Shown here in pieces: positions 5,593 through 46,580 of a stretch of 64,000 nt of DNA (position 1 is its first letter; each line of letters opens with the position of its first letter). The DNA is from Okamejei kenojei. Lineage: Eukaryota. Under the pieces are notes generated by a model that saw nothing but the letters and a program-made list of their open reading frames with translations, had not been told where the DNA came from and did not search any database. Where the stretch lies: the NCBI GenBank assembly GCA_035221665.1, contig CM069131.1:25606001-25670000 (forward strand), read 5' to 3'. The position numbers were made by a program, and so were the translations under genes.

Positions 5593-5969
5593 TGAGGTGT
5601 ATAATATTAGTACTACATATTAGTACTACCTATTGCATAATGTCATAGAAGGAAACGATTTGACCCATCAAGTTTGTGCCAGTTTCTGCAATCCTCTTCC
5701 CTCACTTATTTTCCTGTAACCTATTTTCACTCAAATGCCCATGAATACTCCACTGATTCTCCTTTCACAACCTATACTACAGATAATTTATAGTAGCTAA
5801 TTAACCTACTAACTAGCACATCAAATCGCCCAGATGGGAACCACACCATCACAGGCAGAATGAGCACCATCGACATCACCAGAGGTCAGGATTGAATCCA
5901 GGTCACTGGAGCTGTGAGGTAGAAGTTCTACCTGCTCAGTCACTATGCTACCAACCTAGGCATAAGAAT

Positions 5970-6007
5970 GGTAGACACAACCAGCATCTGCAGTTCTTTC
6001 CTACATA
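5970..6007. mobile_element. 38-bp Penelope-terminus micro-insertion with 12-bp TSD
   Basis: aggcataagaat at 5958-5969 and 6008-6019 flanks gtagacaca + accagcatctgcagttctttcctaca; both pieces occur in the longer PLE termini in this window. Confidence 0.7.
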
Positions 6008-7359
6008 AGGCATAAGAATATTCTATCTGAGATAAGTACACTTTAAATTAAAATATTGATCTGTTGAGAAGCAAGGTTCGGTACAGTGTGGAAGATTTTT
6101 TTTGTTATTTTGAAAATGTCTGTTTCAAAATCCATTTTTAAAATTCTTCAGGTTTTATTTCGGGAACATGGAAATTTTTGGAAATGGGTGAATTTCTAGA
6201 ATATAAGCCTTGTTTTGAATTGTTGTATTGAGGCACTGAAAATTTGCATTCATCTGAAACTTGAATGCTCTATCTACTCCTACCTCAAAATAGGCTGAAG
6301 AACGAGGGATTACAGAGCCAGAGATCCCTGAAAGCAACAGGAGAGATAATGAGGTTGGTTAAGGAAGCGCATATAAAAGTTGACCACATAGTTCATATCT
6401 GTTTCAGAGTTGTCCATGCATTGCGTGGAAGGCCTACTACAGGCCCTGGTTTCTTAGGGTCAGTGAAGAGGTCCTTGACCAGAGTGTTGTAGTTGTCCAA
6501 TTGAGACCACCGTTAGTAAACAAGGTGTAACAACAAATAGTATCTCTTCCAATCTGCTGTCCTTGACTTGAGTTACAATTCTGCAATGAATCAAATGTGT
6601 TAAATCCCCAGTGATATAATCAGGTGAATTGGACACAAAGAATTCCATTCTCCTGTCTGGATTGCAGTTGGAGAAAGAGTTGAGGACATTAATAGGATGT
6701 TGCCAGGGCAAGAAATGTTAGATATAATGAGAGATTGGCACCATCTAACCAACGTTTCCAATGGACAAAGAAGGCTTGATGGACTTAAAACTTCTTTGCC
6801 CGTTTTCAATGGACAAAGAAGTTTTAACAGAGCTGCATAAAACTATGAGAGGCGTAGAACATGTGGGCAGAAAGGAACCATTCCGATATTTGGCAGCTCG
6901 TTAACTAGGGAATGTAGGAATGTGATTAATAAAAGATGAGAAAGTATTTGGGCAAAACAACTTTCAGCAAAGAATGGTAGTTGCGTTAAACTCGCTACTT
7001 GAAAGGAGAGTGGCAGCAGGAATCCTTATCACATTTAAAAGTCCAAATGACAAGTGACGTCCCAAAACCTACAGGGCAATATGCTGAGCGGGGTGGGATT
7101 AGCCTAAATACCTTGTTTTTAACCTGCTTCCATGTCATAACTTTGTTTTCTATGTCATAACTTTCTATTATGTGGCAAACCCACGTCATAAAATATAGGT
7201 ACAAATTAATGATGTCGTCCAGCTCCCTGATGCTTTGCCTGCTGGGAATGTGCATTTGTAATTTATATGCGGACCACAAAATTGTGCCACATCTAAACTC
7301 TACCAAAATGGAGTTTCAGTTGATGTTTTATCTCAAGCAATCCGTGCTGCTTTACAAAA

Positions 7360-9230
7360 TCATAATAATCTGGTGCTGAAAATATGCAACTGGTTGGACA
7401 GCATCTGTGAAGGGGGAAAGAATGTCAACATTTTAACTTGATTTCTTTCTAACTGAACTGAAAAAATTAAGGGATTGAATGGCGTTTAAACATATATAAA
7501 TGTAGAGAGAGTTAGGAGGGGAGAAAAGAATAACTGGCCCACGATCTGCTGGAAAGCAGGAGTGGAAGTCAAACATGTATGCTAAAGGAGCAAGAAACAC
7601 AAGATGAGTTATAAGAGGTAGAGGAATCTTGGTGTTTGCTCATTTTTAAAAATGGGACGTGTTTGTTATCTGAAATTGCTGCACTGAATTTTGAGTTCAA
7701 AGGGTGGGAAGTGGCTGATCAAGGAAATGCTGTTTCTCAGTTTCAGGAGCAATAAAAGAGTTCAACTGATACAGGTTCAAGGTGGAAAGAACCAGAAAAT
7801 AAATTGTCAAGCATCTGGAAACTTATGGTTATACTTGCAGGCTGAACAAATGCATTTGTGCAAAGCAGCATCTAATCTGCTTTTCATTTTACAGTTTACA
7901 AAGCAAAATGCATCAAGGGCAATGCAATGCAGTATTGTAATTTGGAAGAATAAAAGTAAATGCTTTTTCATCCGACTGTGCGCTTAGGAGGCCCTGAAGG
8001 ATGGGGAGGGAGAAAATAAAAAGGTGGATGTGACATATTTGCAAAATCACCGGTAGGTGCAGCGAAGGAGAGAAACATGTTAAGGCATTTTGAAGAGTTG
8101 GAGTGGACCAGAATGTCATAGAGGAACAATCCTATGGATAGTTAAGGGGCTGTCCCACTTGGGTGACCTAAGTGGCGAGTTTAGAAGAGTTTGAAAAAAT
8201 GACACGTTGAAGACCTCCTTCTACTATGTAGAAGACCTCCTTCGACTATGTTGAAGACCAGCTTCGACTAGCTACGACTATCTTCGGGAAAATTGGACAC
8301 CGAATAGTGGAAAGTGAAGACGACCTCATTCGACCTCCCTTCGACCTCCCATCGATTATGAGGCAGAGTATCTATAACTATCTTCGACTACTCTCGATTG
8401 CCTACGACTAACATGCCGACCTACTACGACCTATTATGACCTACAATGACTAAACCTACGAATAAAAAAGTATCGATTTTTTTCCATGGCAACCATATTT
8501 TACGTGCGGGCACTTTTTAACAAATTGAAAAAAACGCCGCGACCTAGCTGAGGCCTCGAGTACGCAGAGACCACTCTCGAGCATGAAGGAGAGTTACAAA
8601 GACCTCCGGCGACCTCGTGTCGAGCGTGCTGCGAGTATGAGTCGAGGGTAAACTCGCCAGAACTCGTGGATTAGGTCGCCCAGATGGGACAGGCCCTTTA
8701 AAGCGGGAGGAAAAAAATGGGTTTGATGGTAACACCATCTGGAGGTGGACCAGAGGGAGCATTTTGATTCATCATATATGGAGGATGATGGCTTCGAAGG
8801 TGTGGGCAAGGGGGTCTAATAAAGTTCCAGAAATGAGAGGAAGAAAGCATGGAAAATGTGACAAAAAATTATGTCATCCATGGTGAAGAAGATTGTTCAT
8901 TTGGGATGTTTATCAGAAGCACTATTGTGAGAATGGATATCATCAGAACAAATGCAATTGAGGCTGAGAAACTGAGAGACAGAAAGCGGGATGGAAGAAA
9001 TTATAATTAACGTTAAATCAACCTACCATCAGCATATTGTAGACGATGTTCAAAGGACAATGGTGACAGAGATAGAAGAAACGGAAAGAGATGAGAATGG
9101 GCAATGTACACCCAAGACGAGAGTGGAGATTGGAAACAAATTAGATGAAATTTTCCTTAATGAGACAAGGGCAATGGATCAAAAAATCTTGTATTGTGCG
9201 AGAGATCAGATGTATGGAGAAAAGCAGATG
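7360..9230 (-). mobile_element. Old decayed Penelope-like element, interrupted by a MITE
   Basis: Diverged pLTR-like sequence near 7370-7460 and sequence near 7660-7710 resembling the antisense of the GIY-YIG C-terminus seen at 46010-46090; purine-rich antisense body; boundaries approximate. Confidence 0.5.
8145..8697. mobile_element. PIF/Harbinger-type MITE copy 1
   Basis: TTA|AGGGGCTGTCCCAC ... TGGGACAGGCCCT|TTA; CpG-rich with internal ~21-bp gaagacctccttcgactatgt repeats. Confidence 0.85.
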
Positions 9231-9359
9231 GAGAGAGATATAACAGAAACATTATTTGAAGTGAATCAAATTTGGATATTTGCTGCTTTCACCAAAAAGA
9301 AGCCTGGTCAATGTTGTTATTTTATTGCTGGTGAGATTTAATTTGTACTCTGATTTTAG

Positions 9360-9479
9360 GAGCATTTAATTGAAAATGAGGTGGCAGTCCTACGGAAGGT
9401 TAAGCATCCTAATATCATCATGTTAATTGAAGAGATGGATACACCAACAGAACTCTACTTGGTCATGGAACTCGTCAAG
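9360..9479 (+). CDS. DCLK2: DCLK2 coding exon (alphaC helix to hinge)
   Basis: tgattttag| ... |gtagga; 120 nt, phase 0-0; [40 protein letters not shown]. Confidence 0.95.
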
Positions 9480-11962
9480 GTAGGAAGGATCGGTGAGGCT
9501 GTAAGTGAATGTGCTGAGGAATTAATATAATTCAGTTGAACGCTTTGAGAGCAGGTCACGCAAAAGCAAGATTTCCTCTCCATGCATGCAGTCTCTGATA
9601 GTGGTGCGTTTCAAATCCCTCCCTAAAAAGATAGTAACATCTGCGATGGTCATCCCTGACTAGCTCGGCAGAATTAGAAATGCAAACAACAGATGGGGAA
9701 TTTAAAAACGGGGCAAAAGTTGGTATAATCTCATTCCTGCATATTAAATTGGTGATGCATTCATATAAAGACTAGAACCTGAGGCCAGAAATTTACCACC
9801 TTGATTCTTTTCAGACTGAAATACCAGATATTTAATTTCAGTTTGATCAGGTGTGTGTACCATCATCAGTGGCTCTGCAGAAATGCTGTGATGAGGATCT
9901 CATTCCTGCCAGCTGCTCACAATTTTAATTTAATTGGCACCATTTGAAATTATATAACATATACTTTTGTCAGTAGTGTGCAATGCTTAAGTTATAGAAT
10001 AACCTAAAATGTGAGGAGACCTTATCCTGAACATGATCCACAATGTTTCAGTATTTCAGTGTGGGTTGTGAAAAAGCCATCAAACCTGTGAAACAGACAT
10101 TAAAACTATGCAAGGAATATAAAGCCTGCATCAAGGCACTACTTCTTTGACTAATGCTCAAAAGATTCTCTAGTTCGACACAGCTTTAATATCTTTTGGG
10201 TTTGTCAATGTAAAACTAAGTTGCCGACCCTGCCCCCACCCCTATATTCTGCTCCACAATAGCCATCTCCCCACTCCCTATAATCCATCCACCCTCCATT
10301 TTTGAAATCTCAGAAAAAACCCAAAGAAGATTGCTTTAAATTCATGACAAGAACCTGGGAAGAGGGGATGGACCTGCATGGTCTGGTTACTGACTACTTG
10401 GGCACAGATGTAACTGATCTGCTTATTGTTTTTAAAAGCTTCCACATTATTTACAGCACCAGGTTGTATATTTGACGGTTATCAATCCCAGCCCAAGTCT
10501 TGCTTTGCTGACGAATTCAAGTCAATTTTCCATGAAGGATTAAGGAATGTGTTTTCCCCAGTTCACGGTAGGTTGGTTGATGTTGTGCTTAACCCTAATT
10601 CACTTGGAAGGAACCAGAGGCATAAGTTAGGTACTATTGCTTCTCCCCATTGCTATCACTGTGTGCAGATCTGATTCCAATTGGCAGTACACCCCCCTGA
10701 TCAGTTAGCAACACTGACATTTGGATGTACCTTGGTGTGTATGCCTCTCTGCTTTCGGAAGGCTCGTTACTGTTACTCTTTCCATGGAGCAGGAGCACCA
10801 GCCTTATATCCATCCTATCAACCTACAAAATCTTAAAGGAGATAGAAAATTTAATCCAACTCTTGTTTTTGGAATTTAGGTTGCAGCAATAAAATATCCT
10901 GCAGCGCTGCTTTAACTGCTCCTTTCCATTTGATCAGGCAAACAGTATTGCACATTCCTGCTGAGATAACTGAGAGGTCTTGCTTTTAGGTAACTGCTTT
11001 TCATTTATCTGGGTTTTGTAGATTAAGTGAAATCATCACATATTTTGTACAAGAGAATTATAGTATCCAGAATTCTATGTCATCTATAATTGTTGGAGCC
11101 TGATTCTGCCCCACAGTTTTGGTGTTGGAGCACGGTGCAGAAAACCAGGTGTGGATCTGTTCCTCAACTTTGAAAGAATCCAATATTTTCTTCTTTTATT
11201 AATCCATTCTCATGTTCTTTACAATGGAGAATATATTAACAAAGAAAATCACTGAGGGATTATTTTCCAAGAATTAAATACAAATCTTGCTCAGTAACCG
11301 TGCTTTCAAATTAGAAGCGGCAAATTCTAGACGTAAAACTGTGAAAAGGTTTATTTTTCAATGTCACCACCCCGACTGAAAATTGTTATGTACTTCAAGG
11401 CTGGTTCTTGGGAGGTTACCGTAAAATGTAATTGTGTCCATCAATCAAAAGCCATCGGTAACAATATAAATATATCAAACAATCAAATAGCACCTGAGGG
11501 ATGTCACCTAGTAACCACATCACTTTTAACTGATAAAAATTGCATCTATCTCATTAAAGATGTCTATTAAGAAGAATTATAAATATGACAGTGGTATGCA
11601 CCCAGGTATTTTAAGTCCATTGCCCTCAGGATGCAATACTTATGTTCAATTATATGCTCAAATTTTAACTGCTAAACACAATTTTTATTACAAAATGCCC
11701 AAGGCAAAATGTGAAGATGTGATTCTGGTGTTGCATTGTAATGAAAATCAACATCCATCCTGTTGAGCAAAATATTTGTTTTCAAATCTCTTTACAACTG
11801 AGGAACAAAAACATATCTTGTTTCATTGACCATTCTGCAGAAAATGACATTTGAAACATAATTTTAGTGAATTTGTGCATCAGTAAAATAACACGTGGTC
11901 AACTCTTGAGACATATTGAATAAATGCCAGTCTCCAGTTGCTCCTCTAGATTGCAGAAGTAA

Positions 11963-12472
11963 AGGGGCTGTCCCACTTGGGCGACCTAATCTGCGAGTTC
12001 TGGCGAGTTTGCCCTCGAATCATACTCGCAGCATGGTCGAGACAAGGTCCTAGGAGGTGTTTGTAACTCTCCTTCATGCTCGAGAGTAGTCCCCGTGTAC
12101 TCGAGGCCTCAGCTAGGTCGCGGCGTATTTTTCAACATTGAAAAATGCCCACGAGTAAAAAAAGGTCGCCTTGGGAAAATTCGACATTTTTTTTACTTGT
12201 AGGTTTAGTCGTAGTTGGCCGGCATGTTAGTCATAGGTAATCGAGGGTAGTCGAAGGTAGACATAGATAGTCTTCATCATAGTCGAAGGAGGTCGAAGGA
12301 GGTCGTCTTCACTCTCCACTATTCGGTGTCCAATTTTCCCGAACTTCGTCGTAGCTAGTCGAAGCTAGTCTTCAACATAGTCAAAGGAGGTCTTCTACAT
12401 AGTCGAAGGAGGTCTTCAACATGACATTTCTTTCAAACTCACCAATTAGGTCGCTCAAGTGGGACAGCCCCT
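11963..12472. mobile_element. PIF/Harbinger-type MITE copy 2 (same subfamily as copy 1, opposite orientation)
   Basis: TAA|AGGGGCTGTCCCACTTGGGCGA ... GTGGGACAGCCCCT|TTA; interior is the reverse complement of 8145-8697. Confidence 0.88.
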
Positions 12473-12764
12473 TTAGTGATCATAGTGGGCAACATTGGCT
12501 GAAACAAAATTCAGAGATTTTTTGCTTAGCAGTCAAAATCCTGATTTAAATTTAGGTTACCATCACCATTACTGTTATCTCCCTTAAAAAAAATTCTGAG
12601 TAAGAATTACCTGTCATCTAAACTTGATCCCAATTGTTACTTGCATTGTAAAACAACACAGCTTAAAATATTCCAAAACTTAAAATTGTGATTCCTGTAT
12701 TTTTATTTCTGTTATTTACAGAAAAATTCAATGTTAGGTGAAGTACAGAATATTTCAGAAATTT

Positions 12765-14329: not shown

Positions 14330-14476
14330 GGTGGGGATCTTTTTGATGCCATTACATCATCGACCAAATACACTGAGCGAGATGCCAGTGCAATGATGTA
14401 CAACCTGGCTTCTGCACTCAAATATCTCCACGGTCTGAACATTGTGCACAGAGACATCAAGCCAGAGAACTTGTTG
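14330..14476 (+). CDS. DCLK2: DCLK2 coding exon (catalytic loop HRDIKPEN)
   Basis: tctctcgacag| ... |gtatgt; 147 nt; [49 protein letters not shown]. Confidence 0.96.
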
Positions 14477-14732
14477 GTATGTTTCCCAACTAAACACATG
14501 TCAGATGATTTTATTTTTCCAACGTATGTGCAATTTGTGAGTACAACATGTCAGCACTAATGTTTATCTACAATTAAGATATCACATGAAATATGCCTTG
14601 TTAATCAACTCTGTGTGGAATTAATCTGATGTTAGCTGTAATAATTTATCATTGGATGGGCTTAGATGCGATAAATATATATTGAGCAATAATATTTGGT
14701 TTACATTTTATGATCCCTTTATGGGAATTTAA

Positions 14733-15443: not shown

Positions 15444-15477
15444 TAAAGAGAACGTTCAAGATCTTTTTTTTTGAACA

Positions 15478-18526: not shown

Positions 18527-19225
18527 ATTGTCAAAATGCTGGCGATTCAGTGCCAAGTTTTGAAACCTAAGTACCAGTCAGTATTAGAACTACCATTACT
18601 GCATGCCGTATAGTCTGCACTTGATTGAACATCCCTTTTCAATGCAATCGCAGTGAGGAATGTGGGGAATCCGCTGTGGTGGGTGTTTATGTTAACTTTT
18701 ATGTAGTTGTCTGTCTTGATGCTTTTTTTAGTGTGGCTGTATGGTAATACGAATATCACTGTACCTTAATTGGTACACGTGACAATAAGATACCTTTGAA
18801 ACCTTTGAAAGGCAAATTGTTGAATCCCAGAAGTAGGCTGATTTGTATTTCTGAGAAACATCAGCAACAGTCCCAGAATCTGAAGCAACTCCAGCCTCAC
18901 TATAAACTAAGGTCCCCACTGATTGCAATTGCATTTGAGCTCAACCATTGTGCAGTAATTTTGTATGCAGCAGCAATACAAAAATCACTGTAGAAAATAT
19001 TCACATCTCCTTTGGCAGCTGCTAAAGCTTTCTGATGACTTGATATTGGCAGTGTTCTAATTGTTTCCTGTGAAAACCCTGTGATGTGTCTAACTCAGTA
19101 TTTCTTTTGTACTAAAGGTATTAGCTATTCCATAATTTCTCTATTATATTCGACATTCAGCATTCATTTACTTTAATCGACTTTAAAATGCTTATCCTAC
19201 TCGAGTCTATATACTCAGTACTTTG

Positions 19226-19452
19226 ACACAAAATGCTGGAGTAACTCAGCAGGACAGGCAGTAACACTGGAGAAAAGGAATGGCTGATGCTTCTGTGTTT
19301 CTCCCTCTCCCCTGATATCAGTCTGAAGAAGGGTCTCGAACCGAAACGTCACCCATTCCTTCCCTCCAGAGATGCTGCCTGTCCCGCTCAGTTACTCCAG
19401 CATTTTGTGCCTATCTTTGTTTTAAACCAGTGTCCGCTTTTCCTTCCTACAC
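19226..19452. mobile_element. Inverted pair of Penelope terminal repeats with hammerhead-like motif; 15-bp TSD
   Basis: TSD atac(t/c)cagtactttg at 19211-19225 and 19453-19467; CTGAAGAAGGGTCTCGAACCGAAACGTC at 19323-19350. Confidence 0.8.
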
Positions 19453-21779
19453 ATACCCAGTACTTTGTATGGCATTGAGTGATATATTTTAAAGTCGTTA
19501 GTTCTCCTTTAGGATAAATATAGGAACTGAGGGAAATGCTTCCAAATCACGACTCCAATACGTTGCAGTTTACTTCTTGCTGTTTCTTCAGTGGAAGATC
19601 AGCTGAAACTCCTAGAGGAAGAATGGGAATGTGTGTTCACACCATTGATGTGAAGTCTTCCTTTGTAATTTGAATATCACTGAACCTTAATTGATGCACG
19701 TAACAATAAAATACCTTTGAAACCTTTGAAGTCTTCATTGAAATTACAACGTCTGCTCCAGAAAGAAAGAAAGGTAACCACAGTGCCGGGCTAACAGTGA
19801 TGGGCAACTGTACCGCCTTCCAGTGAGTGTGATAGCTGTTAAACATCAGGGACCTCATTATTGACATTTCCTCCATTGTACCATCTTTTAACTCCATGTT
19901 GAGAAGTAACAGTGAACTACTGATAGTCAAGGCCACCAGCTCCAAATATGTAAATTATCAACAGACCCAAATTTTGAAACAGATATGTAGGTGGGCAGTT
20001 CTTTGAAACTATTGGAATGTTGTGCAGCAGCAAATAATGTAATACATTTTTCAAATGGATAGCACATGGAATTGAACACAAATTTCAGCATATAGTAGAG
20101 CCAATGCCACACATTGGTTGGTTCTTTCTGAAGGAGTGTGAAGTTGTGCTGATTGTATTATGACTTAACAAGGTGCAATAATTGGCTACCAAAAGGGTCA
20201 AGCAAACATTAAGTACCTGAATTACAAGGGGAAGCTGCAGAAACTGCACTTGTTTAGTTTAAAAGCGATTGGAAAGGATTTTACTGAAATATCCAAGACC
20301 TTTACATTTGTCAAAAATGTTAAACGTGAGAAATATTTAACCTGAATCTGGAAATGAACTGTGACAAGAGGCAGAATGAAATAAATCTCAGATAAGGGAA
20401 CATATTTCTCTAGATGTGACAATCTGTAAGTTCTGCTGTGCAGTGCTACATTGTTTTAATGCAGTACATCTTGAATTTTTATCAAAATTGCTCAGCTTAA
20501 TGAGGTGCTTGGTGCACAGGCAGTACACGTCCAGATCTTTGAAGCAAGACCTCTGTGTGAATGACACACCCAAGCACAGGGTCAACATGCAATATTCAGT
20601 TTGACACCACATCTGTGAAATTGTACTATGCAAAAGCTGAGGCCCTGAGTAGCAAAGCAGATGTTGGCTGGGATGGGGGACGTTGAAGCCTGCTTTGCAG
20701 CTTAAGTGCCTGACCCGTCCCAGGGCCCTGCTGGCTAGTCTGCGACATTCATCATCGTTCAGATAAGCTTTTCTTTGAGTTTTCATTTTTACAGAACCCC
20801 TCAACAGCCCTCTTGCCCTCAGCCAAATACAATCATCTCCCCAACCACTGCCCAAACATCTTCCCGAGCCCCCACCTCCCCTGATCTATCTACATTTTCT
20901 CAGTCTTATTCCATTACATCCCATCCTTACAATCTTCACTCCTTGACTCACCATAACCCCCTCCGCCGCCCCCACCCCCACCACCACCACCATTTTCACC
21001 TTTTTACAACTCAATCTGGTCTCCAGAGTATGTCCTCTGCAGTCTGCATTTGCTTCACTGGTGGAACAATGTGTTGGTTTTCACTGGTAAGCGTGAAAGC
21101 CTTGGGCCTCATCCACGATAAAATGTTCAAATGAGGACAACTCAGACAAAACTGTTGTGTCCCTCCCCTCTCCCACGAGATGCCACTTTAACATGCAATG
21201 TTATGTAGATTATAATTTCTGGCCCAACTACTTCAAACAGAGGATGAGTAATGCTTTAATGCATTATTTATGGAAGCATTCGCAGCTGATAATAGCAGTA
21301 ATTATCAAAGGAGTTCAACAGGCATTTGGTAAGAAAATTAATTGAAGGATGTTGTTAATTAACCATGTATCCTGAGACTAGCCTGGTATATATTTCCCCA
21401 GTTCAATTTCTGCTTTTATTTTTATTTCATTTTTGGCCAGTATTACATTTTTTGGCAAGAATACATGAAATTGTCAAGGATTTTAAAAACATCATTCTCC
21501 AGATGGAAAAATCTTTGTTTTGGGCCCACTGGTTCTAATACATGATAAAACTACTTATTTTATAGAACCTGAGACTGAGTTCTATTCTGATTATTTTTGT
21601 ATTAGTTTAAGGAGGGGACGCATCAATATCTCCATCAGGACTTGTGCTTGAGTGCTTGCTGTCTGGTTATATTTTCCTGTCTTTGTCAGTGTTTCCAGTA
21701 CATTCAGGAACGATGTCAAACTCTTGGTTGCCCCAGAATGGAATGTTGTACTATATTGTTTGCTGGGAACTACGCTCTG

Positions 21780-22195
21780 CAGGAAAGGAACTGCAGATGC
21801 TGGTTTAAACTGCAGATAGACACAAAATGCTGGAGTAACTCAGCGGGACAGGCAGCATCTCTGGAGAGAATGAATGGGTGACATTACGGTTCGAGGGTAG
21901 AGGGCGAGGGAGATACATATATACCAGGGGAGAGGGAGATACATAGATAAGGAAGTTTAATGTATGAAACCAGGACAAAGGCGATGAAGATAAAGGAAAA
22001 CGTAGAATAGATCATTGTGAGCTGGGAGAAGGTAACAACAAAGCAAACAGAGATAAAATGTACTCGGAAACAGTCAGACTGGTCGGACAACTGGGAAAGG
22101 GGAGAGAGGGAGAAAGCAAGGGTTACTTGAAGTTAGAGAAGTCAATGTTCATATCGCTGGGGTGTAAGCAGCCCAAGCGAAATATGAGGTGCTGT
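21780..22195 (-). mobile_element. Penelope-like element 3' fragment
   Basis: Antisense pLTR (gaactgcagatgctgg...gacacaaaatgctggagtaactcagcggg) plus antisense of QHLIFRLGCLHPSDMNIDF (GIY-YIG C-terminus). Confidence 0.75.
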
Positions 22196-22844
22196 TACTG
22201 TGTGTTCACTGATAACTGGTGGAGGTACATAAGATTGAAAGTGTGCACCACCAGACTCAAGAACAGCATCTTCCCCTCTGCTTTCAGGCTTCTGAATGGT
22301 CCTTCCATAAGCTAGGGTACTGTTTGATTCACATCTACCCCAATGGTCTTTGTCCGAGGAACTGATACCTACAATGCTAAGAACTATATTCTGCACTTTA
22401 TCTTCTCTTTTACTCTATCTATTGTATTTGAGTTTGACTTGATTTGTATTCATGTATGATAATTCTAATCTGTTTGGATACCATGCAAAGCAAAACATTT
22501 CACTGGATCAACAATGTGACCACAATAAACCCAACCCTAAAGATGAAGCCAACAACTCTGACATACAGTATTGGTAGCTTGTGTATCCTGCACACCTTGA
22601 TCATCCCCTGCAGGGCATGTCATCCCATTGCACCTTTATGCTTCACTGGAAAATATGTAGTTTTTACTAATTAATTGATATTATTTTTTTTCTCCCAAAC
22701 TATTGGGGGAAAGATTTGTTAAAATACAAGTTAAATTGTTCATCTTCCAGTTTTATTTTTCTCATTGTTAAGAATAGCTGATGTATATTAAATTGAAATT
22801 CTGATTATTTAGTTGTATCACTAAACATTTTGAGAACAGATAAT

Positions 22845-29060: not shown

Positions 29061-29651
29061 AGGGCCTGTCCCACTTAGGTGATTTTTTTTGGCGTGAGCG
29101 GTCTCCTCAAGTGTCGTTACTTATTTCTTGTCGCCGCTGGATTTTGAAATGTTCAAAACCTCTCGGTGACAGTGGGCTTGACATTGCCTGACGTTGCCTG
29201 TCTATACCTGTCATAGGTGCTGTCGTAGGTTGTCGCCAGGATGACACCAGGTGACGTTGATTGTCGCCGGGTCATAACCTCGGTGAATTCCATTGGCGAC
29301 AATCTACGTCATCCTACGTCAACCGGCGACAGTACCGGCTTCAAGAGAAGTATTCAGTTATCTTCATTTGTCGCCGACAGGGGTGTAGCTTATCGTAGCT
29401 TGTCGCTGGTGGAGGTAGGTTGACTTCGGGTGTCGTAGGTTGTCGCCTGTGTGGTAGAAGGTTGTCGTAGCTGGACGTCCCGAGTCGCGAGGAATTGTGT
29501 CGCCCGTTGACGTAGCTTGCCGTAGCTTGACGTTGACTAGGTGGTAGCTTGTCGTGGACATTGTCGTGGGGTGGGAGCATTTCCGGCGTCACGCCGTGAC
29601 AGTGACTGTCGCCACAGTTGCCTAAAATATCGCCAAAGTGCGACAGGCCCT
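29061..29651. mobile_element. PIF/Harbinger-type MITE copy 5
   Basis: TAA|AGGGCCTGTCCCACTT ... AAGTGCGACAGGCCCT; GTCG/CGAC-rich; right TIR duplicated by a later PLE insertion. Confidence 0.82.
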
Positions 29652-29652
29652 T

Positions 29653-29874
29653 GTTTAAGAAGGAACTGCAGATGCTGGAAAATCCAAGGTAGACAAAGGT
29701 GCTGGAGAAACTCAGCGGGTGCAGCAGCATCTATGGAGCGAAGGAAATAGGCAACGTTCCGGGGCCAAAACCCTTCTTGAGAGTGAAGAAGTTTTTGGCC
29801 CGAAACATTGCCTATTTCCTTCGCTCCACAGATGCTGCTGTACCCGCTGAGTTTCTCCAGCACTTTTGTCTACC
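29653..29874. mobile_element. Inverted pair of Penelope terminal repeats; 14-bp TSD
   Basis: Fold-back of gctggagaaactcagcgggtgcagcagcatct with agatgctgctgtacccgctgagtttctccagc; TSD tg(c/g)gacaggccctt at 29639-29652 and 29875-29888. Confidence 0.8.
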
Positions 29875-30451
29875 TGGGACAGGCCCTTCATGGGTTGAAT
29901 GTAGGATTTTGGTGGTGGGTAAACTGAGACAAGCTGGGGATAAATTGTTTCAGGTATAGAATCAGGCAGTCTTTGTGCTGGAGGCCAATGAAGTATGGAG
30001 ATCAGCTCAGTGTCAGCGAGGATAGAGTAAATTACAGTGACTGGGACTGGTCAGAGAGAGAGCTTGAAACAGTAGTGACAAAAGCCATTTTGTGGTGGGG
30101 AAATAAGATATTGGTTACATTTTCCTGTGAGTAAATGGAGGACTGCATAATTCTGAATATCTTAGCATTGTTTGTTCTTTCTGGCATGGTGAAAGCTTCT
30201 GTTTCTGAAAAAATATGTTTGGCCTAGCCTCAGAACAACTTGCAAATGAATTGTTTGTTCTAGAAATCCTGAAAATTGACAAATTTGTTGTTCCACGGAT
30301 TTCTTTTATAACTTCCAAAGCTATTCTTTGGATTGTCATTCTACATTTGAAATATCTTGTGAATTAAATCGAATTTTGTATCCACTCGTACAATCTATGA
30401 TTTACCGAACCAGGTACTTCAATGATCATCATTTTTTTTCTATCCCTGCAG

Positions 30452-32151: not shown

Positions 32152-32241
<90 letters not shown>

Positions 32242-34145: not shown

Positions 34146-34163
34146 ATAAATAAATTGATGATA

Positions 34164-34632
34164 GACACAAAAAGCTGGAGTAACTCAGCGGGACAGGCAG
34201 CATCTCTGGAGAGAAGGAATGGGTGACGTTTCGAGTCTCGAAATCCATGAGTCGCAACCATTCTTTGGCTGTATATATTGATGCGGCTCCTCCCTCGCCA
34301 TCCTTTAATGCAAAATAATGAGTGGGGAAGGTGAAGGCAGTTTTGCCGCTTTCCTCCTTATCTTTCTTCACTCCCTGTCTTTTGCTCGCTGTCTTACTGC
34401 TCATAACCTGAAGTAAACAGACAATAGATTTGTCATAAAGCAGGATGAGTTGTGCAAAGATAGACACAAAAAGATGGAGTAACTCAGCGGGACTGGCAGC
34501 ATCTCTGGAGAGGAACAGGTGACGTGCACATCACCCTTTCCTTCTCTCCAGAGATGCCGCTGTCCCGCTCAGTTACTCCAGCTTTTTGTGCCTATCTTCG
34601 GTTTAAACCAGCATCTGCAGTTCCTTCTGACA
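34164..34632. mobile_element. Composite PLE-terminus insertion carrying ~215 bp of foreign sequence; 16-bp TSD
   Basis: TSD aaataaattga(t/c)gata at 34148-34163 and 34633-34648; pLTR pieces at 34161-34240 and 34457-34630 (inverted pair). Confidence 0.75.
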
Positions 34633-34750
34633 AAATAAATTGACGATAATTATTTTCCAGCATTATTAAGAATTTAAGAATGTAGAAATAGAAATCAAAC
34701 TGGATTGATTTTGCCTGTATGATATTAACAGTATTTTTGTGATTCTACAG

Positions 34751-36463: not shown

Positions 36464-39400
36464 AAAATAGTAAGATTAAATGAGAACTTACCAGTTTGAA
36501 GTTTGATCTTTATTTTATGAGGAGTTAAGACGAGGGACTACGTGAAGAACCCCACACAGCCGTTCGTTCGTCAATCTTCAAAGCAACGGTGTGAAATCAC
36601 AGGTAATAGTGACTGAAGTATAATAGTAAGAACAAAAGACTAGAACTACCAGATGACATTTATGAGGGTTGGGAATGGAGGGCACGTAGTCCCTCATCTT
36701 AACTCCTCATAAAATAAAGACCAAACATCAAACTGGTAAGTTCTCGTTTAATCTTACTATTTTACTTCGGAGTCACGTGAGTGATTACGTGAAGATTTCA
36801 AAGCTCTGTGATTTCATACCATGTTAAACGAGTATACACAACCACAGCTGCTTCATTGACAAATGAAGGGAAAACATTCATAATGCATACAGTCATGACA
36901 TAGATGTAAAACATGTTGATGCTGCTAAATGAAACAATAATATTTCCATCTCTCACCCAGGTGGAAAATATAACCAGAACATAAATAGAGTTAACAAATA
37001 CCCCTGGTTCAGCAATGGGTTATTATAGAATGTTTGGAGATTCTTTCGTTGGACCATGCTGCAGCCATAACAATGCGACCCAGCGGAACATAAATACCCT
37101 TGCTGCTGATGTTGTAGCAGCCCTGGTGGAATGAGATCTGGAATCAGAATCCATTCCTACATAACACAACTCTGTTTTTATCATCTGGAATGGCCTCCCA
37201 ATTTTTTTGTGACTAACAACATTGCTAGTCCAGAAACTCCAAGGCTCTTAATGACCTTGACATATTGTTGTATATATGTGTGCTTACCTTATCAAAGGTC
37301 CCCTGGCATGCCTGTGACTATTTTGAGACCTGACCCCCTTCTGGTCTGCTCAAGTATTTATAACATAATATTATATATTATAATTTACAGACATAATCAT
37401 CCTGTACCATCACAATGATGTAGCGACTGAACCTGCTGCACTAAACCAATGCCAGAAGGATAACTACCTAATAAACTCCAGCCCAATTTAAGGATATAGA
37501 TGGAGCCTTCTGGTGAAATAGTGTTCACAAATGTGAACATCGCATATGGCATTGTACTGGTTCTGGGAGACCTATGTTGAAGATATCCCTACCACTTGAT
37601 ATCCAGTGTGGACCCGACAGAGCGAGTCTTGTTTGTTACAGCCAACTCAATGAGAAAACTCATTGACCCAATTAATGGCCGTATAACTCAATAATTAACA
37701 AACGATCATTTAACATGAACTCCAAACATTAGCAATTTATACCATTTTCAATGGAACATGAGCATAAACAAACTCTTTCATCTCCTGGAAAAGAAAAATT
37801 CTGCTGTTTGGTGCTATCCAAGCACTTTGAACACATAGAAGGATATGTAACAACCCAAACCTTAGGGCAGTTTATTAAACCTGCAGAACATAATTTGAGT
37901 TTATCATGCAACAACTGATTTCCCAAGCCTCAGGCTGAACCAGCAAATTACGTTTAAAATAACCAAATAAGGTTATATTATTATTTTTGACAAATCGGGA
38001 ATCAATTTGCATAATCACACAATAGGAACCTTAAGCGGCCTCTTAATGACTTTATTTGAAGCCTCGATTGATGAAACAAAATGGAGGGAGCCATAAAAGA
38101 CCTTCCTTCTCCTTTTAGCGATAATGTATCTTTCGCCACTGTTATGCCACATATTTTGCAACCAGTGAAATAAACATGAAACCAACATATATATATATTA
38201 GGTGTTCCATTTAACCAGAATTTCATAATATATTTTGATTCAACACCAATTCTGTGTTGCCATTAACCTATATGTGATGATTCTCCTGTGACAACAAGAT
38301 TATGTAACCATTCCAGGGGTCTTTAACCGATTGCACCCTCGTGACTAACATATGCCATCATCATAATGTATCAACCTGAACCTGCGCATGACAATATGTC
38401 TCGGCCCGAAACGTCGCCTATCTCCTTCGCTCCTTAGATGCTGCTGCACCCGCTGATTTTCTCCAGCTTTTTGTGTAAAGCAGTCTGAAGAAGGGTCTCG
38501 GCCCGAAACGTCGCCTATCTCCTTCGCTCCTTAGATGCTGCTGCACCCGCTGAGTTTCTCCAGCTTTTTGTGTAGCAGTCTGAAGAAGGGTCTCGGCCCA
38601 AAACGTCGCCTATCTCCTTCGCTCCTTAGATGCTGCTGCACCCGCTGAGTTTCTCCAGCTTTTTGTGTACCCTCGATTCTCCAGCATCTGCAGTTCCTTC
38701 TTTAAACATTTATGACAATATGCATATTTGTCCAATCACTCTTTAACCCATACAATGCCCGTAGGGTCCGTAGATAATTGATACCAATAAATGAAAAATT
38801 TGCAAGTCATGCAAGTCTGCTCCACCTCCAAACTCAAGATGATATTTGCAACTTGGTATCTACCGTAAACAGCAACTGTGGCCCGATTTCCGAGCCAGTC
38901 TTGCAAGACAATCTTGGTCCTTCTACTGAACCTGCCCAATTCTAACCTGCTTGAAAAGCTAGTATCGTCCATTTTACATGGTTAGACCCCTCAAAGTAGC
39001 TGATAACGTCTAAATCATTTGTAATGTATAACTAAGTGTACACCTTACCAAGCTGTAAGTGGTCCCTTAATTGTAGAGTAGCACAGGCACAGTGCGTGGA
39101 ACCTCTGGCCAGCTGTCATGCTGCCACAACTTCAGTGAACCGCTTACTGCCAAAGAAGACGTGGGGTGCATTGTCGCCGAAACTATGAAACCTTGCTCGT
39201 TCCAATAGCTTGAGCTTCGCCCTCCAGGTTTCACCTATGGAAATGTCTTACCTGAATAGAAGATTCGGCGGCCAACTGTAATGTCCCCCTGAGAGCGATG
39301 TTCACTGCATGTGTGTTTGGGATGGCAACTTTCCTGCCAGGCATAGACCTCTGGCACATGCCCTGTATCCCTTGGGCATGCTCTACGGCTATACCCTCAG

Positions 39401-40060
39401 ACTCGGCGTTAGACTATACTGATCCCACATGCTCTCCTCTTACATGAGGGAGCCATTAAGCAGCCCTGATACACGGTGCTGCTGGCGCAGCTTCAGCAAT
39501 ACGCCGACTTTGCCATGGCCCCAGCGTCAGACTAATACTGATGCTGCATGCTCTCCTCCTACATGAGGGAGACACTAAGCAGGCCTGCTACTAAGCCCTG
39601 CTGACACAATTTCCCATTTAGGACCATAGCACAAATTTGCAATATAATGAAAGATTTACCTAGCAACTACTGGAGCAGTAATGAATATTCTGGAACCGCA
39701 CTATTCTTGGGTATCCCATCCCCAGGAACCCAACCTGTGGAGTCACTGACCGCGTTATCAGTGACTCTGATCGCGAACCCAACATTCCCAGCTCTTCGCT
39801 TCCTCGGTCGAACCAGGGTTTTTCCCCCAAAGCCCTAGGCTGGTTCCCTCGTCGGCCATCGCGAACATCCCGCAAAAACCTCAGAGGTTCCTGCAGGAGA
39901 CCTACAACAGTAAAGAATAGCACTTACTTGAAGTTTTAGACTTACCATTGGAGGAGCTGCGCTGCTCCACAGTCGTCTGCACGAAAGCGTCTGACGTAAT
40001 GACGCACAAACGGCTATACGGGGTTCTTCACGTAGTCACTCACGTGACTGAAGTAAAATA
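36464..40060 (-). mobile_element. DIRS1-type tyrosine-recombinase retrotransposon, decayed
   Basis: Inverted terminal motifs gactacgtgaagaacccc (36536-36553 versus its complement ~40019-40037). Internal complementary region 36683-36794 matches both termini. Antisense of ~37020-37135 reads SHSTRAATTSAA..MAAAWSNE..QTFYN (YR motifs, frameshifted). Confidence 0.85.
38399..38711 (+). repeat. Head-to-tail trimer (~95-97 bp period) of a PLE terminal unit with hammerhead-like core; 11-bp TSD
   Basis: tctcggccc recurs at 38399, 38496 and 38591; CTGAAGAAGGGTCTCGGCCCGAAACGTC at 38485-38512; TSD atgacaatatg at 38388-38398 and 38712-38722. Confidence 0.85.
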
Positions 40061-40470
40061 GCCATGGTGTTTAAAAGGAAATTTAAAATACATTTGCTGC
40101 TCCTTTTTCGAGCTTGGTTAATTTTGAGCAATGGCTACAATGCAAGGTGCTTCGTTTCCCCCACAAAAAAACAAACAATAAAGCCAGAGGTAATTGTCCC
40201 TTCCCCTCAGTTTCCTTCCCATACGCAAGAGAGCAAGAAAACCTTGCCCAATGCAGATCTTCCCTATTCAGTCTAACAAATCTGAGTTCAGTGGTAGATA
40301 GTAATGTAATGTGTTTGATAAATAGTTTCTGCAGCGCACCATATACTATCAAAATATTGCAGACTTTGTAGTTCTGTATAACATGTTAAATGGAGTGCAC
40401 TGTGGCAGTGAGCTATCTTGAGTCTGTAGCTGTAAATGCCTCTGGCCTTAATGCTCTCATTCTCTTGAAG

Positions 40471-40551: not shown

Positions 40552-41484
40552 GTGAGTATTGATATAATAGAGAACTGCAAAATGTACTGACTTCACCACA
40601 GTAAAGACTGGCCAAATGAATGGTGGCAGCAAGTGGACCATTAAGTATTGTATTAAAAATTGCCTTTTCGACCCGGCCGAATCCTACCTGTTTAAAATAT
40701 GACAGTGAGACAGATATGGGAGTGAACAAGCAGGCGAATACCGAGCAGGAAAAAAGCAGAGCAGCTGAGGATAGATCATAATAACTGTTCTTAATGACTT
40801 CCTGCTCCAAATAGACACAGACAAACCTTGAGCGGCACACTCATTTCAGGCTATGATATTCCCAATAACATGAATTACATTATAAATAAGATGAAAATAC
40901 TAAACTACTGGATTATGGCTCAAAGTCAGTAAGTGTCTGGAGAGAGATACAACCTGTACAAAGTGTTGAGAAAGACCAAGGAGGAAATCCATGAGGCGCA
41001 ACCATTCATTATACCTAGTGAGCAGTGGAGAGCTACAAAAAGATTGGAAAATGTAATGCCAAATTCAGTATGGATGATGAAGCCAAACACTGGAAACTCC
41101 AGACTCATTCATCTTATTTATACACTCACAAAAAGCATTTGATTATTGAGGTAAGTCTGGGTTTAAAGGGATAGTTGGACCTGTTCATATAATTGCTCAA
41201 GAGATGGAAGGCCGAGTATTGCTGAACAGATATTTTTCCAGATGGAGAAACAGGCAGTGTGATCCCTATTTTCTATGTTCTTGCTTTATGCAAGTCCATG
41301 ACTTGTCTTTCCTTACATTATACAAGTCCTGATCTAGCAGGTGGGAATATGATTTCAAATCTGCATATGGGACAATACTGCAAGTAGGGAAAAGATGTTT
41401 GGAGACCCCTAGGATGAGTGACTTCAGTTTTCTGAATGAAATTGGAAGCAGTTTGGGAAAGTGAATGGAGGCTATGATAAACCT

Positions 41485-41830
41485 GAAGATAGACACAAAT
41501 TGCTGGAGTAATTCAGCGGGTCAGGCAGCATCTCTGGAGAAAGGAATAGGTGATGTTTCGGGTCGAGACCCTTCTTTAGACTGAGAGCCAGGGGAGAGGG
41601 AAACTAGAGGTGTGAAAAGGTATAAAGAACAAACAAATGAAAGGTATGAAAAGAACAAATCAAGCCCAGCATCCTTGATCAAGGAAAGGTGGAGCCCACA
41701 ATGGTCCATAGTTGGCTGTGGAAGAGGTGATAACAAGGGGGTACGAACAATGAAACTCAGCAGGACAGCAGTGAAACCAGTAGGATAACTAGGATGGGGG
41801 AGGGACAGAGAGAGAGGGAGTGCAAGGGTG
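41485..41830 (-). mobile_element. Penelope-like element 3' fragment inserted in an old CR1
   Basis: Antisense pLTR with mutated hammerhead-like core (reverse complement ctaaagaagggtctcgacccgaaacatc); body homologous to 21780-22195. Confidence 0.75.
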
Positions 41831-43725: not shown

Positions 43726-44394
43726 GTTCTCTCATGGAGGATTAAGGAAGAGAAATAAAGGATGGCTTTGACACTGATGCCCATAATCGCGAAATGAATA
43801 ACTAAAATAAAAACTGGTTATACAACCGAGGGTCATGGCTTGAATCGCTGCAGCCTCTTTGCTGATACTCCAAATTACATTTGTTGTGAAACCAAAGGGA
43901 TCAATCTTTTGTGGGATAGCTGGAATTATCCTTGTGCATAACACATATAAAACATGCCACCAAGTCTGCCCGTCTCAGACCTTGCTGTGAAACGTCTACC
44001 GGGTGAAGCAGTACAGAGAACAGGAAACCCCTTGGTTCAAGGCCAAGTTGTCTGACGTCGATGAGAAACAAAGAATAAGGGCAGTTAGTTCCATGGACTA
44101 GGGTGGAAGCACATCATCTGTAGTTCCTACTGACTGCTCAATGCAGCCTACCCACACACCAACAACACCTGTCCCTGTGCCCAACATAACTTTACTGACA
44201 CAAATTTATTTGTGTTTGATCCTGTCGTCAGTGGGATAGAATTCCACAGCCTTGCACCATAAAAAGAGACAACAAAGCAAAGTTCCTCACGTGTTTAGGT
44301 GGCTTATAGAGCTCTGCCTGAACTAGAGCTGAGAAGGTTACATTAATAGGAGAATTTGTACACACAGCTTATTGTCAATCCAAAAATAAAACAT

Positions 44395-44790
44395 AAAACT
44401 GCAGATGCTGGTTTATACCGAAGATAGACACAAGATGCTGGAGAAACTCAGCGGGGCAGGCAGCGTCTGTGGATAGAAGGAATGGGTGACGTTTCAGGAC
44501 GAGACCCTTCCTCAACTGAGACACAGAAACATGGAAGGATCAGGTGTTAAATGAGAGAACAAAGTGGACGAAGATCAAGGAAAATCTAGAATAGTTACAT
44601 GTAGTTAAATGTACATGTAGCTAATCTACATATAGCTAAATGTAGAATAGCATTGTTAGCTAGGGGAAGGTGGCATACAAAGAAAATTAATCAGGAGGAC
44701 AGTCAGACTGGTCAGAGAACTAGGATGGGGAGGACTGGAGAGAGAGGGAAAGCAAGGGTTACTTGAAGTTAGAGAAGTCAATATTCATAT
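44395..44790 (-). mobile_element. Penelope-like element 3' fragment (inverted relative to the adjacent PLE body)
   Basis: aactgcagatgctgg...gacacaagatgctggagaaactcagcggg...gacgtttcaggacgagacccttc; ends ggttacttgaagttagagaagtcaat. Confidence 0.75.
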
Positions 44791-44799
44791 TCATTCATT

Positions 44800-46580
44800 C
44801 AAACATAAACTGTTGGACATATAGAGATTGATTATTTTGTGAAGAGAGAAAAGAGAGAAGTGGATTCAGTGTAAACCCTCACCCATCATAAAATGATAGT
44901 TTCCATGTATCATCCAAGACACCGCACACAGGCTTCAGCAATTCAACAACCTTCCATTCCTAGGCCCCAATGCATCATCTTTACCATAGCTGTCCAGTCC
45001 CTCTACATCTCCATTATCCCCAGGTCCCTCCAGTTCTTCTTTAAATAGAGACCCAATAAGTTCCTCACAATTAACCCTTGTCCTCACCCATAACAAGTTC
45101 TCTTTTGAATCCACTCACTTTCTTCAAGTTCAATGGTGTAGCCATGGATGCTCACATGGGCCCCAGCTATGCCAGTATTTTTGTTGGTTCCATTGAATAC
45201 TCTTTGTTCCAAATGCCGCATTGGGGTTGCTTCCTGCACCCATTCAGAACTCGATGAATTCATCAACTTTACTACTAACTTTCGCCCTGTCCTCAAGTTC
45301 ACTTGGACAACTTGTGACATCTCTTTTCCCTTTCTCAGTCTCCCTAGCTCCATCACAGGAGACAGACTATTGACTGGTGTCAATATGCTCACATTTGCTC
45401 CCAAGGTTAAGTTTTTCATCTGAGATATCCGCTTTCTTCAGTAAACATGGTTTTCCTCCTGTTGTTGTGGATAGAGCACTCACCCATATCTCCTCTGTGC
45501 CCCGCAGTTGTGCTTGAACTCCCTCTCCCCAGCTGGAGAAAGAACAGAGTTCCATTGGTCTTCATATTTCACCTCACCATCCTCCACATCCAACACATCT
45601 ATCTCCAACAATTCTGTCGCCTTCAACATGATCCCACCTGCAGTCACATCTTCCTGTCCCCAACCCATTCCACAGTTCGTAGGGACCTCCTCTCTCTTTC
45701 CAGCCACAGACCCTGACTGCCCTTGCAGATGAGAGAGAGGTTCACTGAGGGAAACTGAGAAAGGGGAAGGAGAGAGGTTCATATACAACGGCTCCAATTC
45801 TGTTCATCTCATTTGTTGTTCACAATGTGGCATCCTTTACATTGGCGAGATCAAGCGTACACCAGCATTTAGCTGAACATTTGCTCTCTGTCCACCAAGG
45901 CCTGCTGGATCTCCCATTTGCTAACCATTTTAACTCCCCTTTCCATTCCCATACCCAACTTTCTGTCCTTGACCTCCTCCATTGACAGAGTGAGGCCACA
46001 CACAAATTGGATGAACAGCATCTCGTATTTCATTTGGGTAGCCTACGAGCCATTGGTATGAACATTGAATTCTTCGATTTCAAGTAATAGCCCCTAACCC
46101 CCTCCCATCCCTCACATCTTACCCCTACCCCCCGCACCACACTGGTGTGCACCCATTTCTCCCACCATCACCCGCTACTCTGCCAAACTGATCCATCCCC
46201 TACCCCCCCACAGTAGAACAATTCCCACATCTCATATTTCCTTTTTCCTCCCTCTTTCCCATTCCCCTGGTCTCCAATCAGATCCCTCCCTCCGCTCTTT
46301 ACATTTCACTCCTCCTCTTCATTTCTCATCTGATACCTGTTTGTCTCCTATTGAAATACAAGCCCAGTATGCCAATCTTTCACTCCCATTACATGTCACA
46401 GATAATTTCACCTCTAGCCTTTGTCACCCATCTGCCAATCACACTACCCTCATCTGTATCTACCTATCACTTGCCAGACTCTGCCCCATCCACACCTTTC
46501 TATCCCTGCTTTCTCCTCCTTGCTCCTTCAGTTTAAAGTTATCTGTGCATTTCCTCACAGATGACCTGCTGTGTTCCTCC
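44800..46580 (+). mobile_element. Penelope-like element ORF remnant (RT + GIY-YIG endonuclease), pseudogenised
   Basis: GVAMDAHMGPSYASIFVG (~45135-45188), ELDEFINFTTNFRPVLKFTWT, CGILYIGEIKR (~45826-45858), DEQHLVFHLGSL..GMNIEF (~46010-46075); many frameshifts. Confidence 0.85.

What the first reader, a model, noticed from the sequence alone, without database searches (positions are those of the whole stretch)
5958..46580. Window-wide system: hammerhead-bearing PLE termini mobilised as small inverted, tandem and cargo-carrying units
Seen: at least eight copies of one terminal repeat family (5970, 19226, 21780, 29653, 34164, 38399, 41485, 44395). Five have clear 11-16 bp TSDs and no coding sequence. 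Four of those combine an antisense arm beginning at about agacac/agacaa with a sense arm ending at cagttc(c)tt. Established: PLEs carry minimal type I hammerheads (CUGANGA..GAAAC-GUC) in their pLTRs and often integrate with an inverted terminal copy. Inference: fixed arm endpoints suggest a reproducible priming or template-switch mechanism and a non-autonomous family dependent on elements like the remnant at 44800-46580. I cannot tell whether this has been catalogued in elasmobranchs.
Basis: partly seen in the sequence, partly recalled or inferred. Interest (0 to 1): 0.7.

Follow-up and report, generated by a model that had tools for sequence, protein, structure and literature searches.

The report
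Tiny Penelope-like retrotransposon end insertions
Eight scattered copies of one retrotransposon end, six flanked by target-site duplications, have 3' ends at two fixed points about 35-40 bases apart, which likely reflects the already described internal priming of Penelope-like elements rather than a new mobile system.

Summary
Eight loci (15 arms) share one terminal repeat, and five inserts have 11-16 bp TSDs (p about 0.0007-0.002). A sixth, at 44398, also has a 9-11 bp TSD. 13 of 15 arm 3' ends fall in two 10-nt windows about 35-40 nt apart (p=5e-5), and each compound insert has exactly one long arm. This matches the known PLE 'tail', explained in vitro by two internal RT start sites (PMC11167929). 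Inverted, tandem and cargo-between-pLTR inserts with TSDs are all described (PMC3846280, PMC8557442). Corrections: only 2 of 15 arms keep an intact hammerhead core, and no arm starts at the cleavage site. No two inserts share a junction, and two arms run into a PLE endonuclease C-terminus, so a separate non-autonomous family is not shown. The ORF remnant is a more diverged relative, not attached to the 44398 copy. Residual interest: 5' ends cluster over the hammerhead (9 of 15), and a 38-bp insert has non-overlapping arms, which favours priming from both nicks. Verdict: new member of a known kind.

The parts
5958..6019 (.). Insert A: 38-bp insert (5970-6007) between 12-bp TSDs; 11-bp antisense arm A1 (5970-5980) plus tail-only sense arm A2 (5979-6007), 2-nt overlap at the junction; the arms cover non-overlapping parts of the repeat
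19211..19467 (.). Insert B: 15-bp TSDs; short antisense arm B1 (19226-19293) plus long, tail-bearing sense arm B2 (19294-19452)
19323..19350 (+). Minimal type I hammerhead core, conserved core bases intact, one mismatch in helix II
21779..22196 (-). Copy C: solitary 5'-truncated PLE with the last 23 codons of the endonuclease, 3' UTR, hammerhead with core deletion, and tail; no TSD found
29639..29888 (.). Insert D (second subfamily): 11-14 bp TSDs; tail-bearing arm D1 (29653-29786, minus) plus short arm D2 (29784-29877, plus); near-perfect hairpin; arms join at a short palindrome just upstream of the hammerhead core; cores degenerate
34148..34648 (.). Insert E: 16-bp TSDs; short arm E1 (34164-34240, minus), cargo, short arm E2 (34457-34525, minus), tail-bearing arm E3 (34526-34632, plus); E2/E3 junction is palindromic; no hammerhead 5' half
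34241..34456 (-). 216-bp cargo between two direct arms; origin unidentified; its first 26-27 bp match 40984-41010
   Evidence: no protein match; only weak PDB matches
38388..38722 (+). Insert F (second subfamily): 11-bp TSDs; 2.8 head-to-tail units of about 95-97 bp (38399-38476, 38477-38573, 38574-38711); tail only on the last; the two junctions differ by 2 nt
38485..38512 (+). Minimal type I hammerhead core, intact (the next unit has G12 to A; the first unit lacks the 5' half)
41476..41830 (-). Copy G: solitary 5'-truncated terminus, core broken, 3' end between the two clusters; no TSD found
44387..44809 (-). Copy H (44398-44798): 5'-truncated terminus reaching the last ORF codons, partial tail, its own 9-11 bp TSD
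44890..46090 (+). [quoted passage not shown]
   Evidence: translation read against the published alignment; no database hit; one sub-threshold NCBIfam match (E 0.062)
46515..46597 (+). The remnant's own decayed terminus, 50-65% identical to the other arms
   Evidence: E 1.6e-7

Best explanation
These are short copies of a retrotransposon terminus whose 3' ends sit at two fixed points, and they are likely by-products of a Neptune-like Penelope element that would nick both target strands 11-16 bp apart and start reverse transcription at two internal sites of its RNA. Shown: the copies, TSDs, two endpoint clusters, one long arm per compound insert, and the link of the repeat to an endonuclease C-terminus. 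Inferred: one nick primes at the downstream site (tail-bearing arm) and the other nick, or a template jump, uses the upstream site (tail-less arms). The cDNAs stop early, mostly over the hammerhead region, and are joined head to head through short overlaps or palindromes (inverted units), or chained by jumps (tandem unit, cargo unit). Initiation at the copy of these sites nearest the RNA's 5' end would give 95-135 nt products without any dedicated non-autonomous master. Hammerhead cleavage is probably not what sets the ends.
For: 13 of 15 arm 3' ends lie in two 10-nt windows (+60..+68 and +101..+106 from the cleavage triplet): p=5e-5, and 10 of 12 with p=5e-4 after dropping three non-independent arms. 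The 35-40 nt spacing equals the 30-40 bp PLE tail, which lies between two RT start sites in vitro; the same enzyme cleaved and extended both strands, and hammerhead mutants did not alter insertion (PMC11167929). All 5 compound inserts carry exactly one tail, at one end next to the TSD, as in the Fig. 2 legend of PMC8557442. The layout of insert E (two direct plus one inverted pLTR around cargo, with TSD) matches the Adineta NRPS case (PMC3846280). Copies C and H contain the ORF end. 0 of 15 arms begin at the cleavage site. Insert A's arms do not overlap on the repeat, so one cannot be a fold-back copy of the other as it stands. Very short PLE inserts are known (median 128 bp, PMC9977147).
Against: One window, six TSD-flanked events, no empty sites and no genome survey. 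Endpoints were set by hand from alignments and are ambiguous by 1-4 nt of overlap with the TSD. Two arms (+77, +90) fall outside both clusters. The in vitro data are for a Poseidon element, and no significantly stable stem-loop was found at the start sites here (z from -1.3 to +0.9; no compensatory pairs). Hairpins can lose their centres later, so junctions may not be original. Tail-bearing arms B2 and E3 share two variants absent from their partner arms, which this model does not explain. The ORF remnant's identity rests on reading motifs by eye; database searches did not confirm it.
Confidence: 0.68

Rival explanations
1. A true non-autonomous family (SINE-like or retrozyme-like): short pLTR units or composite hairpins act as master copies, are transcribed, and are mobilised in trans as units.
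For: High density (8 loci, 2230 bp of 64 kb). 9 of 15 arms start within -32..-4 (p 0.001-0.0015; 6 of 12 with p 0.03-0.04 after dropping dependent arms). An initiator-like motif lies at about -32, as noted in a rotifer pLTR. B2 and E3 share two variants. Short non-autonomous Penelopes are reported in Heliconius and Chlamydomonas.
Against: 0 of 10 pairs among the five compound inserts share a junction; two subfamilies are mixed; C and H run into the ORF. The two shared variants are one of 28 pairwise comparisons and were not formally tested.
Confidence: 0.17
2. Inverted units arise by fold-back self-priming at palindromes (the Arkhipova 2013 hypothesis) rather than priming from both nicks, with later central deletions trimming some hairpins.
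For: The D and E junctions fall at palindromes; arms within one insert share subfamily states (D1/D2; E1-E3); palindromic junctions are described in PMC3846280.
Against: Insert A's arms do not overlap and B's are asymmetric by about 50 nt. Fold-back alone does not explain why the inverted arm stops at the upstream start site next to the TSD.
Confidence: 0.15
3. Hammerhead self-cleavage and circular RNA (rolling-circle) intermediates define the units, especially the tandem at 38399.
For: The tandem unit contains the hammerhead motif, with a palindromic helix III suited to dimers (PMC4209133); tandem retrozymes are reported in one chondrichthyan.
Against: The tail is present once and lies outside the repeated unit; the two junctions differ by 2 nt; helix I has only 2 pairs; no arm starts at the cleavage site; only 1 of 3 units has an intact core now.
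Confidence: 0.08
4. The small units are remnants of longer inverted PLE insertions that lost their interiors by deletion after insertion.
For: Long palindromes are unstable (general knowledge); short overlaps at junctions A, B and D fit microhomology-mediated deletion, which is reported for PLEs.
Against: It does not explain the tandem or cargo units, or 5' ends clustering over the hammerhead; it still requires the same fixed 3' priming.
Confidence: 0.1

Closest known systems
Endonuclease-containing Penelope-like elements, Neptune clade (PMC8557442; passages and supplement alignment read)
   Same: pLTR containing the ORF end, hammerhead and 30-40 bp tail at one end; inverted 5'-truncated copy; partial tandems; RT plus C-terminal GIY-YIG in the remnant with Neptune-like motifs by eye
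   Different: Most inserts here are only 38-470 bp and lack coding sequence; clade not confirmed by phylogeny or database hit
Poseidon PAc of Anolis carolinensis (PMC11167929; main text read)
   Same: Two fixed internal RT start sites bounding the tail; both strands cut and extended; hammerhead cleavage not needed; AT-leaning targets (TSDs 55 of 79 bases A/T versus 59% in the window)
   Different: Different clade; no AC-rich stem-loop demonstrated here; the parts read do not describe tiny two-arm inserts or which strand uses which site
Adineta vaga Penelope pLTR-flanked cargo (PMC3846280; parts 1-4 of 5 read)
   Same: Two direct plus one inverted pLTR around foreign DNA with a TSD; solo pLTRs capturing non-coding sequence; palindromic junctions; initiator-like motif
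   Different: Cargo here is 216 bp and unidentified; arms are partial; copy density is far higher
Metazoan non-LTR retrozymes (PMC7229834, passages; bioRxiv 10.64898/2026.07.22.740005, parts 1-3 of 5)
   Same: Hammerhead-containing tandem repeat related to a PLE pLTR, with a long TSD
   Different: Minimal rather than canonical hammerhead; only one intact core; a tail outside the unit; circRNA untested
L1 twin priming (recalled, no call)
   Same: Both nicked strands prime, giving an inverted 5' part inside one TSD
   Different: Here the second priming point is fixed, and in most inserts both arms copy the same region

Membership tests
Endonuclease-containing PLE | Terminal repeat contains the 3' end of the ORF | tested here: met
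   Copies C and H translate to an endonuclease-type C-terminus with stop; 69.7% identity over 99 bp between C and the remnant's ORF end
Endonuclease-containing PLE | Optional 30-40 bp tail at one end only | tested here: met
   Two 3' clusters 35-40 nt apart; one tail in each of 5 of 5 compound inserts
Endonuclease-containing PLE | Tandem or inverted pLTR arrangement with TSD | tested here: met
   4 inverted and 1 tandem insert; 6 of 8 loci with significant TSDs
Endonuclease-containing PLE | Single ORF with telomerase-like RT and C-terminal GIY-YIG | tested here: inconclusive
   Motifs match the published alignment by eye; Pfam, NCBIfam, PDB, Atlas and homologue searches gave no confirming hit; the ORF is heavily broken
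Neptune clade | Cys-rich linker between RT and endonuclease | tested here: inconclusive
   Only a fragment with two cysteines remains, next to a rearranged purine-rich stretch near 45730-45780
Neptune clade | RT phylogeny | not tested
   No reference PLE proteins were retrieved by the searches
Minimal type I hammerhead of metazoan PLEs | Core CUGANGA / helix II / GAAA / NUH, extra base before 10.1, palindromic 15.2-16.2 | tested here: met
   Met in 2 of 15 arms (19323, 38485); broken or truncated in 13; features from PMC4209133
Minimal type I hammerhead of metazoan PLEs | Helix I of 4-5 bp | tested here: not met
   Only 2 pairs read from the sequence; a 2-bp helix I is described for D. virilis Penelope
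Minimal type I hammerhead of metazoan PLEs | Self-cleavage as a dimer | not testable with these tools
   Needs an in vitro assay; monomer folding did not give the hammerhead fold
Non-LTR retrozyme | At least two consecutive tandem units with complete hammerheads | tested here: not met
   1 of 3 units at 38399-38711 is intact; criterion
Non-LTR retrozyme | Expressed as circular RNA | not testable with these tools
   No RNA data
Dedicated non-autonomous PLE family | Copies share one internal structure derived from a master | tested here: not met
   All five compound inserts differ in architecture and junction; the sample is one window

The most novel reading that the evidence does not exclude
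In this lineage a PLE mass-produces 40-300 bp inserts by priming both target nicks with an ordered choice of start site (one tail site, all others the upstream site) and by initiating near the RNA's 5' end. The genome would then hold a very large in vivo record of the unresolved second-strand and joining steps of PLE transposition, including capture of short host DNA between ends.
Probability: 0.3. Interest if true: 0.55.

Novelty: new member of a known kind. Interest (0 to 1): 0.3.

Why it matters
The architecture is known, so it is not surprising to a PLE specialist. Its value is as material. The steps after RT initiation in PLEs are stated to be unvalidated (PMC11167929). Very short TSD-flanked inserts at about one locus per 8 kb would allow a statistical test of both-nick priming against fold-back self-priming, and of whether the hammerhead or the transcript start sets 5' ends. 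The inverted inserts also form long RNA hairpins if transcribed. I found no paper describing this family's structure in sharks or rays, though PLE expansion in whale shark introns and retrozymes in one chondrichthyan are reported at survey level. Repbase, Dfam and subscription journals could not be checked.

Tried and rejected
Rfam scan: no hammerhead family at E<=1, only miRNA-type matches below gathering score caused by the hairpins. Protein searches for the remnant gave no confirming hit; the word-indexed searches had only 15-62 candidates and no positive control for eukaryotic coverage was run, so this is weak. Cargo as a host exon: it shows an acceptor-like site and a 56-codon open frame, but phmmer on 1.84 billion proteins, Pfam and the Atlas found nothing and the PDB matches (Affimers, best E 0.003) are judged spurious; an exon is not established. 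Cargo as locally templated DNA: the 26-bp match to 40985-41010 has E 2e-5, but 56 of 1000 random window segments have short hits as strong (many are edges of longer repeats); left open. Conserved RNA structure at the start sites: no significant folding or covariation. The 44398 copy as the remnant's inverted pLTR: rejected (own TSD; 49% identity to the remnant's 3' region). Cleavage-defined 5' ends: rejected (0 of 15). The prokaryotic genome scan was not used.

Full report
1. Observation. Self-BLAST and alignment confirm one repeat family at all eight named loci, made of 15 arms. nhmmer recovered 14 of them (the 11-bp arm at 5970 is too short) and added only a decayed terminus at 46515-46597; other hits had E 0.12 or worse. 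The arms occupy 2230 of 64000 bases. Five inserts have TSDs of 12, 15, 11-14, 16 and 11 bp; against 3000 random intervals p is 0.0007-0.002 with one mismatch allowed. Of the other three loci, 21779 and 41476 have none, while 44398 has a 9-bp exact / 11-bp one-mismatch repeat (p about 0.002). At least two subfamilies are present: inserts 29653 and 38399 group together (77-86% identity) apart from the others.

2. Endpoints. Positions are counted from the last base of the hammerhead cleavage triplet and were set by hand from the alignment; the remnant's terminus was left out. Seven arms end at +60..+68, six at +101..+106, one at +77 and one at +90. 13 of 15 fall in two 10-nt windows: p=5e-5 against uniform ends, with 12 of 14 (p=1e-4) and 10 of 12 (p=5e-4) after dropping dependent arms. 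Each of the five compound inserts has exactly one long arm, next to a TSD. The 5' ends vary (-310 to +75), but 9 of 15 lie in -32..-4 (p 0.001-0.0015; 8 of 14, p 0.003-0.005; 6 of 12, p 0.03-0.04). None starts at the cleavage site. Read by eye, junctions A, B and D show 2-4 nt overlaps, D and E join at palindromes, and arm E1 shares 4 nt with its target.

3. Hammerhead. The motif fits the minimal type I hammerhead of metazoan PLEs (PMC4209133, parts 1-2 of 4 read): core, extra base before helix II, palindromic 15.2-16.2. It is intact in 2 of 15 arms. Inserts 5970 and 34164 lack its 5' half. Helix I has only two pairs. Rfam has no matching model at E<=1. Folding found no significantly stable or covarying structure. 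Activity is untested.

4. Link to an autonomous PLE. Copies 21779 and 44398 extend about 310-330 nt upstream of the hammerhead into codons ending an endonuclease-like C-terminus, and C is 69.7% identical over 99 bp to the remnant's ORF end. The remnant (about 44890-46090, plus strand) shows RT motifs and a GIY-YIG region with CxxC that resemble the Neptune rows of the published alignment by eye (PMC8557442 supplement). No database search confirmed this. Its 3' region is 40-50% identical to the three long copies and its terminus 50-65% identical to the arms, so it is a more distant relative. The 44398 copy is probably an independent insertion beside it.

5. Cargo. Insert 34164 holds 216 bp between two direct arms, with an inverted tail-bearing arm beyond, all inside one TSD. 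The cargo has an acceptor-like site and an open frame, but no protein match (weak Affimer matches). Its first 26 bp match 40985-41010 (E 2e-5), which is not rare in this repeat-rich window (56 of 1000 random segments). Its origin is unknown.

6. Mechanism. Established: PLE inserts are often partial tandems with an inverted 5'-truncated copy and a 30-40 bp tail at one end (PMC8557442, 12 of 20 passages seen). A Poseidon protein nicks and extends both strands, starts at two internal RNA sites that bound the tail, and does not need hammerhead cleavage (PMC11167929, parts 1-2 of 4). pLTRs can carry genes or non-coding DNA inside a TSD, in the same two-direct-plus-one-inverted layout (PMC3846280, parts 1-4 of 5). 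Inferred for this window: staggered nicks 11-16 bp apart; one 3' end primes at the tail site and the other nick, or a template jump, uses the upstream site; cDNAs end early and join head to head or chain into tandems. Because these sites also occur near the 5' end of a pLTR-driven RNA, initiation there would give 95-135 nt arms like those in inserts 29653 and 38399. An initiator-like motif lies at about -32, but the palindromes at -32, -16 and -4 or RT stalling on helix II could produce the same clustering. Insert 5970, whose arms cover +58..+68 and +75..+103, cannot be a fold-back product unless trimmed later. Against this reading: the sample is small, two ends lie outside the clusters, no start-site structure was found, and B2 and E3 share two variants that their partner arms lack.

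7. Comparison and novelty. It works like a canonical PLE and meets the structural tests for one; clade membership is inconclusive. The tandem fails the two-intact-units criterion for an active retrozyme (bioRxiv 10.64898/2026.07.22.740005, parts 1-3 of 5; its supplements, which list chondrichthyan families, are closed and may cover this repeat). Canonical retrozymes are described in PMC7229834 (12 of 18 passages). Short and non-autonomous PLE copies are known (PMC6685494, 2 passages; PMC9977147, 4 passages), and PLE expansion in whale shark introns is reported (10.1101/443036, 2 passages). Seven searches returned no structural description of this family in elasmobranchs; a search of one of two supplements of PMC4209133 found no shark or skate entry. 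Repbase and Dfam were not available.

8. Verdict. The feature is real and correctly seen, and is largely explained by published PLE biology. New member of a known kind; interest 0.3. The most novel reading not excluded, an ordered both-nick priming record testable genome-wide, has probability about 0.3 and interest 0.55 if true.

Noticed in passing
window 19294-19452 and 34526-34632: The tail-bearing arms of two different inverted inserts share two non-CpG variants that their own short partner arms lack, while a third site follows the insert rather than the arm: possible separate templates per arm, conversion, or chance.
   Followed up: partly
window 19310-19323, 41575-41590 (minus), 44510-44530 (minus): A pyrimidine run ending in CAG lies one base before the hammerhead's short helix I, recalling the intron end described at this position in D. 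virilis Penelope; it overlaps the initiator-like motif. Splicing could supply a longer helix I.
   Followed up: no
window 40984-41010: 27-bp match (2 mismatches) to the very edge of the cargo in insert 34164; local templating or a shared old repeat.
   Followed up: partly
window 54861-55212, related to 14804-14930: 352-bp near-palindrome (82% self-complementary) of an unrelated family; MITE-like. Its ends resemble those of the 8144-8700 and 11960-12473 elements.
   Followed up: partly
window 8144-8700 and 11960-12473: Two copies in inverted orientation (80% identical) of a roughly 550-bp element with terminal inverted repeats and internal 22-bp tandem repeats; likely non-autonomous DNA transposons.
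   Followed up: partly
window 36464-36763, with pieces at 40000-40061: 81-bp inverted repeats (95% identical) about 300 bp apart; MITE-like.
   Followed up: no
window 14327-14482: Protein kinase exon on the plus strand (Pfam Pkinase, E 6e-14); DCLK-like by recall. The inserts may therefore be intronic; exon structure was not mapped.
   Followed up: no
window 26325-29174: Fragmented and partly inverted LINE-like RT remnants (Pfam RVT_1 E 5e-4 at 27233-27631) with several internal inverted duplications.
   Followed up: no
window 63108-63134: Run of 27 G; possibly a sequencing or assembly artefact.
   Followed up: no
window 7385-7423 and 35345-35431: Two very weak matches to the arm profile (E 0.12 and 0.36); possibly older copies or chance.
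   Followed up: no
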